Shown in pieces: positions 33,934 to 41,147 of a stretch of 64,000 nucleotides of DNA. Each line of letters starts with the position of its first letter. Within the stretch, counting starts at the first letter, position 1. The translations under genes and the position numbers were made by a program. Below the pieces are notes generated by a model. The model did not search any database and was not told the origin of the DNA. It saw only the letters and a program-made list of their open reading frames with translations. This DNA is from the human T2T-CHM13v2.0 reference genome, Homo sapiens: NCBI RefSeq assembly GCF_009914755.1, contig NC_060937.1; one strand, given 5' to 3'.

Positions 33934-35240
33934 TCAATTCCCACCTATGAGTGAGAATATGCGGTGTTTGGTTTTTTGTTCTTGTGATAGTTTACTGAGA
34001 ATGATGGTTTCCAATTTCATCCATGTCCCTACAAAGGACATGAACTCATCATTTTTTATGGCTGCATAGTATTCCATGGTGTATATGTGCCACATTTTCT
34101 TAATCCAGTCTATCATTGTTGGACATTTGGGTTGGTTCCAAGTCTTTGCTATTGTGAATAATGCCACAATAAACATACGTGTGCATGTGTCTTTATAGCA
34201 GCATGATTTATAGTCATTTGGGTACATACCCAGTAATGGGATGGCTGGGTCAAATGGTATTTCTAGTTCTAGATCCCTGAGGAATCGCCACACTGACTTC
34301 CACAATGGTTGAACTAGTTTACAGTCCCACCAACAGTGTAAAAGTGTTCCTATTTCTCCACATCCTCTCCAGCACCTGTTGTTTCCTGACTTTTTAATGA
34401 TTGCCATTCTAACTGGTGTGAGATGATATCTCATAGTGGTTTTGATTTGCATTTCTCTGACGGCCAGTGATGATGAGCATTTTTTCATGTGTTTTTTGGC
34501 TGCATAAATGTCGTCTTTTGAGAAGTGTCTGTTCATGTCCTTCGCCCACTTTTTGATGGGGTTGTTTGTTTTTTTCTTGTAAATTTGTTTGAGTTCATTG
34601 TAGATTCTGGATATTAGCCCTTTGTCAGATGAGTAGGTTGCGAAAATTTTCTCCCATGTTGTAGGTTGCCTGTTCACTCTGATGGTAGTTTCTTTTGCTA
34701 TGCAGAAGCTCTTGAGTTTAATTAGATCCCATTTGTCAATTTTGGCTTTTGTTGCCATTGCTTTTGGTGTTTTGGACATGAAGTCCTTGCCCACGCCTAT
34801 GTCCTGAATGGTAATGCCTAGGTTTTCTTCTAGGGTTTTTATGGTTTTAGGTCTAACGTTTAAATCTTTAATCCATCTTGAATGGATTTTTGTATAAGGT
34901 GTAAGGAAGGGATCCAGTTTCAGCTTTCTACATATGGCTAGCCAGTTTTCCCAGCACCATTTATTAAATAGGGAATCCTTTCCCCATTGCTTGTTTTTCT
35001 CAGGTTTGTCAAAGATCAGATAGTTGTAGGTATGCGGCATTATTTGAGGGCTCTGTTCTGTTCCATTGATCTATATCTCTGTTTTGGTACCAGTATCATG
35101 CTGTTTTGGTTACTGTAGCCTTGTAGTATAGTTTGAAGTCAGGTAGTGTGATGCCTCCAGCTTTGTTCTTTTGGCTTAGGATTGACTTGGCGATGCGGGC
35201 TCTTTTTTGGTTCCATATGAACTTTAAAGTAGTTTTTCCA
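33934..35240 (-). pseudogene. L1 ORF2 C-terminal part (after residue ~841), disrupted
   Basis: [17 protein letters not shown]..., TGG>TGA stop at 35096-35098, ~2-bp deletion near 35045, then an open 368-aa stretch with the CCHC region ending [11 protein letters not shown]. Confidence 0.93.
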
Positions 35241-35620
35241 GATGGAGGTGGCGGGCGGCACGGAGCGGGCGTGCTGAGCCCCGGCCGCCGGCCCGGCATG
35301 GGCGTCTCCCGCGGGCCCTCCGCTGGCCGGGGCTAGGGCCGGATGGAGCCGCGGGACGGTAGCCCGGAGGCCCGGAGCAGCGACTGCGAGTCGGCTTCCG
35401 CCTCGTCCAGCGGCTCCGAGCGCGACGCCGGTCCCGAGCCGGACAAGGCGCCGCGGCGACTCAACAAGCGGCGCTTCCCGGGGCTGCGGCTCTTCGGGCA
35501 CAGGAAAGCCATCACCAAGTCTGGCCTCCAGCACCTGGCCCCCCCTCCGCCCACCCCTGGGGCCCGGTGCAGCGAGTCAGAGCGGCAGATCCGGAGTACA
35601 GTGGACTGGAGCGAGTCGGC
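35241..35620. promoter_or_regulatory. CpG-island-like 5' end of the retrocopy, including a 12-codon uORF (35298-35336)
   Basis: Very high GC with dense CpG in an AT-rich context. ATG at 35298 reads [12 protein letters not shown] and stops 6 nt before the main ATG. Confidence 0.55.
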
Positions 35621-38027: not shown

Positions 38028-38621
38028 GAAGGCTCAGGACACCGAGCTGGCGGCCTACCTGGAGAACCGGCAGCACTACCAGATGATCCAGCGGGAGGAC
38101 CAGGAGACGGCTGTGTAGCGGGCCGCCCACGGGCAGCAGGAGGGACAATGCGGCCAGGGGATGAGCGCCTTCCTTGCCCACCTCACTGCCACATTCCAGT
38201 GGGACGGCCACGGGGGGACCTAGGCCCCAGGGAAAGAGCCCCATGCCGCCCCCTAAGGAGCCGCACAGACCTAGGGCTGGACTCAGGAGCTGGGGGGCCT
38301 CACCTGTTCCCCTGAGGACCCCGCCGGACCCGGAGGCTCACAGGGAACAAGACACGGCTGGGTTGGATATGCCTTTGCCGGGGTTCTGGGGCAGGGCGCT
38401 CCCTGGCCGCAGCAGATGCCCTCCCAGGAGTGGAGGGGCTGGAGAGGGGAAGGCCTTCGGGAAGAGGCTTCCTGGGCCCCCTGGTCTTCGGCCGGGTCCC
38501 CAGCCCCCGCTCCTGCCCCACCCCACCTCCCCCGGGCTTCCTCCCGGAAACTCAGTGCCTGCTGCACTTGCCTGCCCTGCCTTGCTTGGCACCCGCTCCG
38601 GCGACCCTCCCCGCTCCTCTG

Positions 38622-41147
38622 TCATTCCAATTCTGTGAAGAAAGTCATTGGTAGCTTGATGGGGATGGCATTGAATCTGTAAATTACCTTGGGCAGTATG
38701 GCCATTTTCACGATATTGATTCTTCCTACCCATGAGCATGGAATGTTCTTCCATTTGTTTGTGTCCTCTTTTATTTCCTTGAGCAGTGGTTTGTAGTTCT
38801 CCTTGAAGAGGTCCTTCACATCCCTTGTAAGTTGGATTCCTAGGTATTTTATTCTCTTTGAAGCAATTGTGAATGGGAGTTCACTCATGATTTGGCTCTC
38901 TGTTTGTCTGTTGTTGGTGTATAAGAATGCTTGTGATTTTTGTACATTGATTTTGTATCCTGAGACTTTGCTGAAGTTGCTTATCAGCTTAAGGAGATTT
39001 TGGGCTGAGACGATGGGGTTTTCTAGATAAACAATCATGTCGTCTGCAAACAGGGACAATTTGACTTCCTCTTTTCCTAATTGAATACCCTTTATTTCCT
39101 TCTCCTGCCTGATTGCCCTGGCCAGAACTTCCAACACTATGTTGAACAGGAGCGGTGAGAGAGGGCATCCCTGTCTTGTGCCAGTTTTCAAAGGGAATGC
39201 TTCCAGTTTTTGCCCATTCAGTATGATATTGGCTGTGGGTTTGTCACAGATAGCTCTTATTATTTTGAAATACGTCCCATCAATACCTAATTTATTGAGA
39301 GTTTTTAGCATGAAGGGTTGTTGAATTTTGTCAAAGGCTTTTTCTGCATCTATTGAGATAATCATGTGGTTTTTGTCTTTGGCTCTGTTTATATGCTGGA
39401 TTACATTTATTGATTTGTGTATATTGAACCAGCCTTGCATCCCAGGGATGAAGCCCACTTGATCATGGTGGATAAGCTTTTTGATGTGCTGCTGGATTCG
39501 GTTTGCCAGTATTTTATTGAGGATTTTTGCATCAATGTTCATCAAGGATATTGGTCTAAAATTCTCTTTTTTGGTTGTGTCTCTGCCCGGCTTTGGTATC
39601 AGAATGATGCTGGCCTCATAAAATGAGTTAGGGAGGATTCCCTCTTTTTCTATTGATTGGAATAGTTTCAGAAGGAATGGTACCAGTTCCTCCTCATACC
39701 TCTGGTAGAATTCGGCTGTGAATCCATCTGGTCCTGGACTCTTTTTGGTTGGTAAACTATTGATTATTGCCACAATTTCAGAGCCTGTTATTGGTCTATT
39801 CAGAGATTCAACTTCTTCCTGGTTTAGTCTTGGGAGAGTGTATGTGTCGAGGAATGTATCCATTTCTTCTAGATTTTCTACTTTATTTGCGTAGAGGTGT
39901 TTGTAGTATTCTCTGATGGTAGTTTGTATTTCTGTGGGATCGGTGGTGATATCCCCTTTATCATTTTTTATTGTGTCTATTTGATTCTTCTCTCTTTTTT
40001 TCTTTATTAGTCTTGCTAGCGTTCTATCAATTTTGTTGATCCTTTCAAAAAACCAGCTCCTGGATTCATTAATTTTTTGAAAGGTTTTTTGTGTCTCTAT
40101 TTCCTTCAGTTCTGCTCTGATTTTAGTTATTTCTTGCCTTCTGCTAGCTTTTGAATGTGTTTGCTCTTGCTTTTCTAGTTCTTTTAATTGTGATGTTAGG
40201 GTGTCAATTTTGGATCTTTCCTGCTTTCTCTTGTGGGCATTTAGTGCTATAAATTTCCCTCTACACACTGCTGTGAATGCATCCCAGAGATTCTGGTATG
40301 TTGTGTGTTTGTTCTCGTTGGTTTCAAAGAACATCTTTATTTCTGCCTTCATTTCGTTATGTACCCAGTAGTCATTCAGGAGCAGGTTGTTCAGTTTCCA
40401 TGTAGTTGAGCGTCTTTGAGTGAGATTCTTAATCCTGAGTTCTAGTTTGATTGCACTGTGGTCTGAGAGATAGTTTGTTATAATTTCTGTTCTTTTACAT
40501 TTCCTGAGGAGAGCTTTACTTCCAACTATGTGGTCAATTTTGGAATAGGTGTGGTGTGGTGCTGAAAAAAATGTATATTCTGTTGATTTGGGGTGGAGAG
40601 TTCTGTAGATGTCTATTAGGTCCGCTTGGTGCAGAGCTGAGTTCAATTCCTGGGTATCCTTGTTGACTTTCTGTCTCGTTGATCTGTCTAATGTTGACAG
40701 TGGGGTGTTAAAGTCTCCCATTATTAATGTGTGGGAGTCTAAGTCTCTTTGTAGGTCACTCAGGACTTGCTTTATGAATCTGGGTGCTCCTGTATTGGGT
40801 GCATAAATATTTAGGATAGTTAGCTCCTCTTGTTGAATTGATCCCTTTACCATTATGTAATGGCCTTCTTTGTCTCTTTTGATCTTTGTTGGTTTAAAGT
40901 CTGTTTTATCAGAGACTAGGATTGCAACCCCTGCCTTTTTTTGTTTTCCATTGGCTTGGTAGATCTTCCTCCATCCTTTTATTTTGAGCCTATGTGTGTC
41001 TCTGCACGTGAGATGGGTTTCCTGAATACAGCACACTGATGGGTCTTGACTCTTTATCCAACTTGCCAGTCTGTGTCTTTTAATTGGAGAATTTAGTCCA
41101 TTTATATTTAAAGTTAATATTGTTATGTGTGAATTTGATCCTGTCAT
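38622..41147 (-). CDS. L1 ORF2 residues 1-841 (endonuclease plus reverse transcriptase), uninterrupted, terminated by a TGA from the antisense DGKZ 3'UTR
   Basis: EN motifs TLNING, IQETH, NIYAPN, GDFN, KIDH and SDH are present, as are RT motifs [17 protein letters not shown] and FADD. Confidence 0.85.

What the first reader, a model, noticed from the sequence alone, without database searches (positions are those of the whole stretch)
35221..38640. Retrocopy with no poly(A) tail and only a 5-bp junction duplication: non-canonical mRNA capture
Seen: left junction actttaaagtagtttttcca|gatggagg, right junction ctctgtca-tt|ccaattctgtgaag. Only ttcca (35236-35240, 38625-38629) is duplicated, the 3'UTR stops with no polyadenylation signal or A tail, and the L1 is otherwise collinear. 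Three models (inference). (a) Normal TPRT at TT/AAAG (35225/35226) with a 15-bp TSD aaagtagtttttcca, followed by a deletion of the DGKZ 3' end, tail and most of the right TSD. (b) Endonuclease-independent or internally primed capture of mRNA at a break. (c) Template switch onto DGKZ mRNA during L1 second-strand synthesis, so that both inserted in one event; the polarity fits priming from the L1 sense strand ending ...GAATTGGAA.
Basis: partly seen in the sequence, partly recalled or inferred. Interest (0 to 1): 0.72.

Follow-up and report, generated by a model that had tools for sequence, protein, structure and literature searches.

The report
Tail-less DGKZ retrocopy inside young L1
DGKZP1 is an ordinary L1-made copy of the DGKZ messenger RNA that landed inside a young L1 element and lost its tail end, so it is a small structural curiosity and not a new way of capturing RNA.

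Summary
A fully spliced DGKZ cDNA (+ strand, 35241-38626) interrupts a full-length minus-strand L1. Only ttcca is duplicated. There is no A tail and no poly(A) signal, and the copy stops 80 nt before the end of the parent's AGTAAA signal.

New facts:
- The L1 has its own tail and a 14-15-bp duplication.
- All 29 of 29 related L1 copies carry one uninterrupted TTGGAAAAAACTACTTTAAAG at the site, so the 5-bp duplication is real. One T is missing from the left flank.
- A TT/AAAG endonuclease site lies exactly 15 nt (16 before the T loss) upstream of the 5' junction. In this L1 that happens by chance at 1.4-5.6% of positions.
- The 5' end carries an untemplated G.

Best reading (about 0.8): endonuclease-dependent target-primed reverse transcription at TT/AAAG with a 15-16-bp stagger. 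The tail-side junction then lost about 90-110 nt of 3'UTR, the tail and 10-11 nt of the right duplication. Whether this was a later deletion or primer trimming with internal priming during insertion cannot be told here. Endonuclease-independent capture is about 0.1. Co-insertion with the L1 is about 0.02, but divergence does not refute it because the two ages are indistinguishable. Ape and pangenome alleles would decide. Interest is low.

The parts
33661..33675 (-). Left copy of the host L1's own target-site duplication (ctcttttccctttct)
   Evidence: the same 14-15 nt recur at 43133/43134-43147.
33676..33730 (-). L1 tail region: an A run, an 18-nt spacer (33696-33713) and a second A run, read on the minus strand
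   Evidence: The spacer has one other exact match in the genome, on contig C4.
33731..35240 (-). 3' part of the host L1 (end of ORF2 and the 3'UTR)
   Evidence: the minus-strand frame reads ...[13 protein letters not shown]..., continuing the ORF2 frame that ends ...FFTELE at 38622; alignment to full-length copies.
35224..35229 (+). TTAAAG, an L1 endonuclease-type site with the inferred nick opposite 35225/35226
   Evidence: The chance of such a site giving a 7-20-nt duplication in this L1 is 1.4% (TT|AAA core), 2.6% (seven recalled variants) or 5.6% (at most 1 mismatch).
35226..35240 (+). Inferred full left copy of the retrocopy's target-site duplication (aaagtagtttttcca). It is 15 nt now and was 16 nt in the uninterrupted L1.
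   Evidence: 29 of 29 relatives have 6 T/A here, the window has 5.
35241..35241 (+). Untemplated G at the 5' end of the cDNA copy
   Evidence: the parent reads ...gcgcc|atggagg, the window reads ttcca|g|atggagg.
35242..38624 (+). DGKZ processed copy: 31 exons joined, with 5'UTR, coding sequence and 507 nt of 3'UTR
   Evidence: 30 substitutions in 3385 aligned nt (99.1% identity), a 14-nt deletion at 37990-37992 and a 1-nt deletion at 38291.
38625..38629 (+). ttcca, the remaining 5 nt of the right duplication copy. The first two t could also come from the mRNA (the parent has tttca).
38630..43133 (-). 5' part of the host L1 (5'UTR, ORF1 and most of ORF2)
   Evidence: 850-aa open ORF2 stretch; 5' end ggctcctcccc on the + strand.
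43133..43147 (-). Right copy of the host L1's own target-site duplication

Best explanation
DGKZP1 was made by the ordinary L1 machinery acting on an L1 copy that was already in place.

1. L1 endonuclease nicked the L1-sense (minus) strand at 5'-CTTT/AAAG, which is TT/AAAG on the + strand at 35225/35226.
2. The second-strand cut fell 16 nt away, after ttcca.
3. A full-length, capped, fully spliced DGKZ mRNA was reverse-transcribed to its 5' end, which explains the extra G.
4. The left flank kept the whole duplication (aaagtag t5-6 cca).
5. [quoted passage not shown] The join is at tt, or at tt(t/c)ca allowing one mismatch.

The loss was either a later microhomology deletion of very roughly 120-200 bp, or happened during integration when the primer overhang was trimmed to ...TTGGAA-3' and re-annealed on UUUCA in the mRNA. 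I put these at about even odds.

**Shown:** the structure, the real duplication, the endonuclease site and its rarity, the missing 3' end, and the untemplated G.

**Inferred:** the nick position, the order of events and the timing of the loss.
For: - **Endonuclease site.** TTAAAG lies exactly 15 nt upstream of the 5' junction. In this L1, on this strand, TT|AAA-core sites have a density of 0.0010 over 6004 nt. A site giving a 7-20-nt duplication is expected at 1.4% of positions, or 5.6% with the loosest definition.
- **Duplication length.** 15-16 nt matches the 14-16-bp peak for L1-driven insertions. Trans-mobilised retrocopies (mRNA, Alu, SVA) were not associated with short duplications (PMC2912911, abstract and passages).
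- **Full-length spliced copy.** The copy joins 31 exons and has an untemplated 5' G.
- **Pre-insertion site.** 29 of 29 L1 relatives show the same uninterrupted site, and 28 of 29 have CTTTAAAG there.
- **Independent host L1.** The L1 has its own 14-15-bp duplication, its own tail and is full length, so it is an independent, completed insertion.
- **Join.** The microhomology is 2 nt perfect, or 4 of 5.
Against: - The right copy of the proposed 16-nt duplication is mostly absent, so the 15-16-nt reading rests on the left flank and the motif alone.
- A second event, or an unusual primer-trimming step, has to be assumed.
- A later deletion must by luck have ended inside the 16-nt duplication without touching unique L1 sequence.
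- No allele with a tail was seen, because no other human or ape sequence could be examined here.
- 2 nt of perfect microhomology is expected by chance at about 16% of random joins (my arithmetic), so it carries little weight.
- One T is missing from the left copy and needs a separate explanation, such as homopolymer slippage.
Confidence: 0.8

Rival explanations
1. Single-event variant, which shares the endonuclease step with the best explanation (its probability is counted inside that 0.8). L1 endonuclease cut both strands 16 nt apart. The right 3' overhang was trimmed by 10-11 nt to ...GAATTGGAA-3'. That end annealed to 5'-UUUCA-3' in the DGKZ 3'UTR (four Watson-Crick pairs and one G.U) and primed reverse transcription internally. 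The result is a tail-less retrocopy with half of its duplication lost.
For: - One event explains the endonuclease site, the intact left duplication, the 5-nt remnant and the missing tail.
- The remnant ends exactly where the mRNA can pair with the primer.
- The window's c at 38627 is the primer's base, not the mRNA's.
- UUUCA lies in an unpaired loop in the centroid fold of the last 200 nt read, L002 1901-2100.
- Tail-less, internally primed, duplication-flanked retrocopies are a described class that includes mRNAs (PMC5322556, abstract and passages).
Against: - In described tail-less copies the complementarity starts at the nick and the target consensus is TT/WAAAAWW. Here the pairing lies 10-11 nt inside the primer, so a flap must be removed.
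- The fold is no better than shuffles (z = -0.08).
- A polyadenylated mRNA should normally prime at its tail.
- The extra two matches after the mismatch have a 1 in 16 chance (my arithmetic).
Confidence: 0.38
2. Endonuclease-independent capture. A pre-existing nick or break in the L1 at TTGGAA/AAAACTAC was repaired by priming on the DGKZ mRNA through microhomology. This gives a 3'-truncated, tail-less insert with a 5-bp duplication.
For: - 3' truncation of more than 25 nt and absence of a tail meet two of the four criteria of Sen et al. 2007 (PMC1920257 section 9).
- The nick implied by a 5-bp duplication (TTT/TTCC on the + strand) is not endonuclease-like.
- There is microhomology at the 3' junction.
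Against: - The criteria also demand no duplication of any length, and 18 of 21 such loci had target deletions. Here a real 5-bp duplication exists and no target is lost beyond 1 nt.
- The TT/AAAG site at duplication distance would be a 1.4-5.6% coincidence.
- The insert is a complete 5' copy with no extra nucleotides beyond one G, whereas 15 of 21 such loci carried extra DNA (section 11).
Confidence: 0.1
3. Co-insertion. During second-strand synthesis of the integrating L1, the polymerase switched from the L1 cDNA to DGKZ mRNA at ...GAATTGGAA and back again, so that the L1 and the retrocopy arrived in one event.
For: - The polarity is compatible.
- The L1 and the retrocopy have indistinguishable divergence. 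For the L1: at most about 13 differences in 2245 nt (0.58%) from the nearest genomic copy per stretch, and 33 of 5785 non-CpG private differences (0.57%). For the retrocopy: 30 of 3385 (0.89%) overall and 15 of 2964 non-CpG (0.51%). Fisher p = 0.76 for non-CpG.
- Landing in an L1 of the same age is a coincidence under independent insertion.
Against: - The L1 is full length and collinear, with its own tail and its own 14-15-bp duplication.
- The model does not predict the TT/AAAG site 15 nt from the junction, nor a duplication of L1 sequence.
- It would require the first-strand L1 cDNA to be opened and filled over 3.4 kb.
- In the passages I saw of a 2025 catalogue of L1 chimeras, same-orientation partners are ascribed to RNA processing or template switching and opposite-orientation segments to twin priming. 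The pipeline looks for sequence 5' of the L1. DGKZ does not occur in its main text.
- CpG-site transitions are somewhat more frequent in the L1 (13 of 205) than in the retrocopy lineage (12 of 428), Fisher p = 0.047. This hints weakly at an older L1.
Confidence: 0.02

Closest known systems
Canonical L1-mediated processed pseudogene (target-primed reverse transcription in trans)
   Same: Fully spliced full-length cDNA copy, an untemplated 5' G, a TT/AAAG site, and 15-16 nt between that site and the 5' junction.
   Different: No poly(A) tail, no poly(A) signal, about 90-110 nt of 3'UTR missing, and only 5 of 16 nt of the right duplication present.
Tail-less retropseudogenes (Schmitz et al. 2004, cited within the paper read; Noll et al. 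2015, PMC5322556)
   Same: 3'-truncated, no A tail, L1-dependent, short complementarity between the target and the RNA at the truncation point. mRNAs are among the described sources.
   Different: Described cases have both duplication copies and the complementarity begins at the nick (consensus TT/WAAAAWW). Here the pairing is 10-11 nt inside the primer, and the 5-bp reading has no such motif.
Endonuclease-independent (non-classical) L1 insertions (Sen et al. 2007, PMC1920257)
   Same: 3' truncation, no tail, microhomology at the junction.
   Different: Those loci have no duplication, usually have target deletions, and often carry extra nucleotides. This locus has a real duplication, no deletion, and a consensus-like endonuclease site at duplication distance.
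L1 chimeric insertions by template switching or twin priming (Law and Burns 2025 preprint, 10.1101/2025.02.02.635956)
   Same: An L1 and a cellular RNA copy lie next to each other, here in opposite orientation.
   Different: As I read that catalogue (abstract, section titles and passages), the partner is sequence adjacent to, and 5' of, the L1. Here it sits inside a full-length collinear L1, which has its own pair of duplications.

Membership tests
Canonical L1-mediated processed pseudogene | Intron-less copy of a spliced mRNA | tested here: met
   31 parental exons on contig C11 are joined without introns.
Canonical L1-mediated processed pseudogene | Endonuclease target TT/AAAA at the start of the duplication | tested here: met
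   TT/AAAG at 35224-35229, 15 nt from the 5' junction. Chance is 1.4-5.6%.
Canonical L1-mediated processed pseudogene | Two copies of a 7-20-bp target-site duplication | tested here: inconclusive
   The left copy is complete (15 nt). The right copy keeps only ttcca.
Canonical L1-mediated processed pseudogene | Poly(A) tail after the complete 3' end | tested here: not met
   No A run and no AATAAA. The copy ends 80 nt before the end of the parent's AGTAAA.
Endonuclease-independent insertion (criteria of Sen et al. 2007) | 3' truncation beyond 25 bp and no poly(A) tail | tested here: met
   The criteria were read.
Endonuclease-independent insertion (criteria of Sen et al. 2007) | No target-site duplication of any length | tested here: not met
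   ttcca is duplicated. 29 of 29 relatives have one copy.
Endonuclease-independent insertion (criteria of Sen et al. 2007) | Insertion site deviates from the endonuclease consensus | tested here: inconclusive
   The 5-bp reading gives TTT/TTCC, which deviates. A TT/AAAG site lies 15 nt upstream of the 5' junction.
Tail-less retropseudogenes | 3'-truncated with no oligo(A) | tested here: met
Tail-less retropseudogenes | Target consensus TT/WAAAAWW, with complementarity to the RNA starting at the nick | tested here: not met
   At the 5-bp site the + strand reads TTT/TTCCAAT. At the TT/AAAG site the RNA does not match the first 10-11 nt. The consensus was read.
Tail-less retropseudogenes | Truncation point in a single-stranded part of the RNA | tested here: inconclusive
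   UUUCA is unpaired in the centroid fold, but the fold is no better than shuffles (z = -0.08).
L1 chimeric insertion (one event) | The partner RNA copy and the L1 share one pair of duplications, with the partner at the L1 5' end | tested here: not met
   The L1's duplications flank a full-length L1. The retrocopy is internal and has its own duplicated L1 sequence.
L1 chimeric insertion (one event) | Both parts arrive at the same time | tested here: inconclusive
   Divergences are indistinguishable. No other species could be examined.

The most novel reading that the evidence does not exclude
The whole structure arose in one step. L1 endonuclease cut both strands 16 nt apart, the priming overhang was trimmed by 10-11 nt, and reverse transcription of a polyadenylated mRNA then started about 100 nt inside its 3'UTR on a 5-nt match (four pairs and a G.U). 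This would be a germline hybrid between endonuclease-dependent and break-repair-type retrocopying, leaving a tell-tale 'full left, partial right' duplication. The still bolder reading, that the L1 and the retrocopy entered together, is not excluded by the divergence data, but I give it about 0.02.
Probability: 0.38. Interest if true: 0.4.

Novelty: new member of a known kind. Interest (0 to 1): 0.2.

Why it matters
The locus is a clean natural example in which the host transposon gives the pre-insertion sequence. That lets a tail-less retrocopy be assigned to an endonuclease-dependent origin and not to break repair.

If orthologous alleles show the truncated junction was there from the start, it would document primer trimming and internal priming on an mRNA in the germline. 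If an allele with a tail exists, the case is simply a later deletion.

Either way it warns against calling retrocopies 'endonuclease-independent' from a missing tail and a short apparent duplication alone. The gene itself is an annotated pseudogene, and nothing here bears on function.

Tried and rejected
- **Alternative polyadenylation near the truncation point.** Rejected. No AATAAA lies anywhere on the + strand of the copy, and I saw no A-rich hexamer in the 60 nt before the end.
- **Age test between the L1 and the retrocopy.** Done three ways: against 29 relatives, by nearest copy per stretch, and by CpG against non-CpG sites. It gives no usable difference, so it cannot settle co-insertion.
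  - The 29 relatives are mostly younger copies. The 3'UTR trinucleotide is ACA in 18, ACG in 8, and GAG, ATG and unread in 1 each, while the window has GTG. Part of the 49 'private' differences are therefore subfamily differences.
  - In a 121-nt stretch with 4 such differences, 39 of 39 other copies listed differ by only 2, by my conversion of bit scores.
- **Fetching same-subfamily full-length copies.** I used letter-free searches instead.
- **Literature on DGKZP1.** 5 papers hold the name. In the two I opened it appears only in tables of pseudogene/miRNA pairs. A search combining DGKZ with retrocopy terms found no paper on its structure.
  - Supplement look-ups: none held for PMC4772013 and no hit in PMC4608704.
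  - One row in Table S1 of PMC2584115 lists the locus as 'expressed strong', with 29 processed introns, percent-identity column 989 (about 98.9%), poly(A) length 6 and rhesus, mouse and dog columns of 100, 99 and 99. I read those three columns as breaks in orthology from the methods passage.
- **RNA fold of the 3'UTR end.** Not better than shuffles.
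Full report
**What is there.** The + strand reads ...actttaaagtagtttttcca(35240) g(35241) atggaggtgg... on the left and ...ccgctcctctgtca(38624) ttcca(38625-38629) attctgtgaag... on the right.

The flanks are one L1 on the minus strand. Its ORF2 frame is open for 850 aa down to 38622 (...FFTELE) and continues below 35240 (...[10 protein letters not shown]...). 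The insert is therefore antisense to the L1.

The L1 is full length:
- Its 5' end (ggctcctcccc on the + strand) is at about 43133.
- Its 3' end is followed by an A run, an 18-nt spacer and a second A run (33676-33730).
- It is flanked by its own 14-15-bp duplication, ctcttttccctttct (33661-33675 and 43133/43134-43147).

**The insert.** A search of the window's own genome found the parent on contig C11, exon by exon, and no other copy of this 3'UTR: 2 matches, the window itself and the parent.

I joined 31 parental exons in a script and aligned them. There are 30 substitutions in 3385 aligned nt (99.1% identity), one 14-nt deletion at 37990-37992 that breaks the frame, and one 1-nt deletion at 38291. 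Of the 30 substitutions:
- 15 are CpG transitions, 12 on the retrocopy side and 3 on the parent side.
- 15 are at non-CpG sites, which is 15 of 2964 or 0.51% (after removing the four false mismatches caused by a wrong exon boundary and the one inside the junction; corrected).
- In the coding part, 10 are synonymous and 12 are not. Eight are in the UTRs.

The first base, G at 35241, is not in the parent, which reads ...gcgcc|atggagg. From general knowledge, such a G is often seen at the 5' end of full-length L1-made copies.

**The missing end.** The parent continues gtcatttcatcgcgg...ctcagtaaagtggattttttttt. The copy ends 80 nt before the end of the AGTAAA hexamer. With the usual 10-30 nt from signal to cleavage site (general knowledge), about 90-110 nt of 3'UTR and the tail are absent. 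I could not determine the cleavage site itself.

No AATAAA lies on the + strand of the copy. The parent has tttca where the window has ttcca. Unambiguous mRNA-derived sequence therefore ends at 38624, tt is shared, and cca is L1 target. The annotated end at 38629 is 3-5 nt too far.

**The pre-insertion site.** I fetched the 29 best non-self L1 matches, taken from 40 scored out of 7705 candidates. All 29 were used and none was dropped.
- All 29 of 29 have one uninterrupted ...CACAGAAT(T/G)GGAAAAAA..., with six A.
- 28 of 29 have CTTTAAAG.

So ttcca really is duplicated, no L1 sequence is lost, and the left flank is one T short (5 T against 6).

**Which mechanism.** On the + strand the hexamer at 35224-35229 is TTAAAG, exactly 15 nt (16 with the sixth T) upstream of the 5' junction. 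This is the standard geometry of L1 endonuclease nicking and duplication.

This strand of the L1 is poor in such sites. TT|AAA-core density is 0.0010 over 6004 nt. The chance that a random junction has a site giving a 7-20-nt duplication is:
- 1.4% for the TT|AAA core.
- 2.6% for seven variants recalled from the literature.
- 5.6% for at most 1 mismatch to TTAAAA.
- In the whole window the corresponding values are 3.4%, 5.1% and 11.2%.

Kojima 2010 reports a 14-16-bp peak in duplication length. It also reports that mRNA retrocopies and other trans-mobilised copies are not associated with short duplications (PMC2912911, abstract and passages).

By contrast, the nick implied by a 5-bp duplication (TTT/TTCC) is not endonuclease-like. 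The endonuclease-independent class was defined by four features: more than 25 bp of 3' truncation, no duplication of any length, no tail, and deviation from the consensus. In that class 18 of 21 loci had target deletions and 15 of 21 had extra nucleotides (PMC1920257, sections 9 and 11). This locus meets two of the four. The same paper names the confounder that I think applies here: deletions that remove the 3' end, the tail and the downstream duplication of a classical insertion.

I therefore conclude that the event began as endonuclease-dependent target-primed reverse transcription (about 0.8).

**How the 3' junction was lost.** There are two routes.

*Later deletion.* This would remove about 90-110 nt of UTR, the tail and 10-11 nt of the right duplication, joined at tt. 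By my arithmetic, 2 nt of microhomology is expected at about 16% of random joins.

*Loss during integration.* The 16-nt 3' overhang is trimmed to ...GAATTGGAA-3'. That end can pair with 5'-UUUCA-3' of the mRNA through four Watson-Crick pairs and one G.U, and extension from it reproduces the observed junction base for base.
- This resembles tail-less retropseudogenes, which are 3'-truncated, lack an A tail, are flanked by duplications and show 2-18 nt of target-RNA complementarity. mRNAs are among their sources (PMC5322556, abstract and passages).
- In that class, however, the pairing starts at the nick and the site consensus is TT/WAAAAWW. Neither holds here.
- UUUCA is unpaired in the centroid fold of the last 200 nt read, L002 1901-2100, but the fold is no better than shuffles (z = -0.08).

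I cannot separate the two routes and give them about even odds.

**Co-insertion with the L1.** It gives no answer.
- Against the 29 relatives, the L1 has 49 private substitutions in 5990 columns, 16 of them in CpG columns. Its star-tree terminal branch is 0.98% over all sites and 0.63% at non-CpG sites. The ML terminal branch is 0.94%.
- Those relatives are mostly younger copies (3'UTR trinucleotide ACA in 18, ACG in 8, GAG, ATG and unread in 1 each, against GTG in the window). Part of that distance is therefore subfamily difference.
- In a 121-nt stretch with 4 'private' sites, 39 of 39 other listed copies differ by 2 (my conversion of bit scores).
- Taking the nearest genomic copy for each of three stretches gives about 6, 5 (plus a 2-nt gap) and 2 differences. 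That is 13 in 2245 nt, or 0.58% as an upper bound (same conversion).
- The retrocopy stands at 0.89% overall and 0.51% at non-CpG sites. Fisher p = 0.76 for non-CpG sites. CpG transitions are 13 of 205 in the L1 against 12 of 428 in the retrocopy, p = 0.047.

The two elements are therefore of indistinguishable age. At commonly assumed primate rates this is a few million years, which is an inference. It agrees with the rhesus column (100) in Table S1 of PMC2584115, which I read as a break in orthology (one row seen, methods passage).

Co-insertion is disfavoured on structure, not on age:
- The L1 is complete and has its own duplication and tail.
- The model predicts neither the TT/AAAG site nor a duplication of L1 sequence.
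- It needs the first-strand L1 cDNA to be opened over 3.4 kb.
- In the passages I saw of a 2025 catalogue of L1 chimeras, same-orientation partners are ascribed to RNA processing or template switching and opposite-orientation segments to twin priming. The pipeline looks for sequence 5' of the L1.

I give co-insertion about 0.02.

**Known or new.** DGKZP1 is an annotated pseudogene. Five papers in the searched library hold the name. The two I opened list it only in tables. A further search with DGKZ and retrocopy terms found no paper on its junctions. The supplements of other retrocopy catalogues could mostly not be read.

The junction anomaly seems unreported, but it falls within known kinds: a processed pseudogene with a deleted or internally primed 3' junction.

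**Limits.**
- No other human haplotype or primate genome was available.
- The cleavage site of DGKZ was not determined.
- The L1 age estimates rest on 29 tool-chosen relatives and on three sampled stretches (2245 of about 6000 nt).
- The mismatch counts are my conversion from bit scores.
- The seven endonuclease-site variants and the meaning of the 3'UTR trinucleotides are recalled, not taken from a call.

Noticed in passing
window 33676-33730; locus L063 (contig C4 44052498-44052515): The host L1 ends in two A runs separated by 18 nt, which looks like a very short 3' transduction. The 18-mer has one other exact match in the genome, on contig C4, flanked there by a few more matching A. No L1 lies upstream of it in this assembly; an antisense Alu-like stretch does. 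It may be the empty site of a lost or polymorphic source element, or a chance match. I estimate about 0.09 exact matches are expected by chance.
   Followed up: partly
window 35233-35237: The T run next to the left junction has 5 T where 29 of 29 related L1 copies have 6. The 1-nt loss sits right at the junction, so it may date from the insertion itself, for example by slippage during fill-in.
   Followed up: partly
window 38625-38629: The RefSeq end of DGKZP1 (38629) includes 3-5 nt that belong to the L1 target. They align to the parent only because the parent reads tttca there.
   Followed up: yes
window 35343-38027: The retrocopy's reading frame matches the parent's from the ATG to a 14-nt deletion at 37990-37992, which shifts it. 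Coding differences are 10 synonymous to 12 non-synonymous, fewer non-synonymous than I would expect for free drift. This may be due to CpG-rich third positions or to changes in the parent. One catalogue row lists the locus as 'expressed strong'.
   Followed up: partly
window 38622-41174 and about 35046: The host L1 keeps an 850-aa open stretch of ORF2 up to the insertion point. It has a private 2-nt deletion near 35046 and a private 1-nt insertion near 42771.
   Followed up: no
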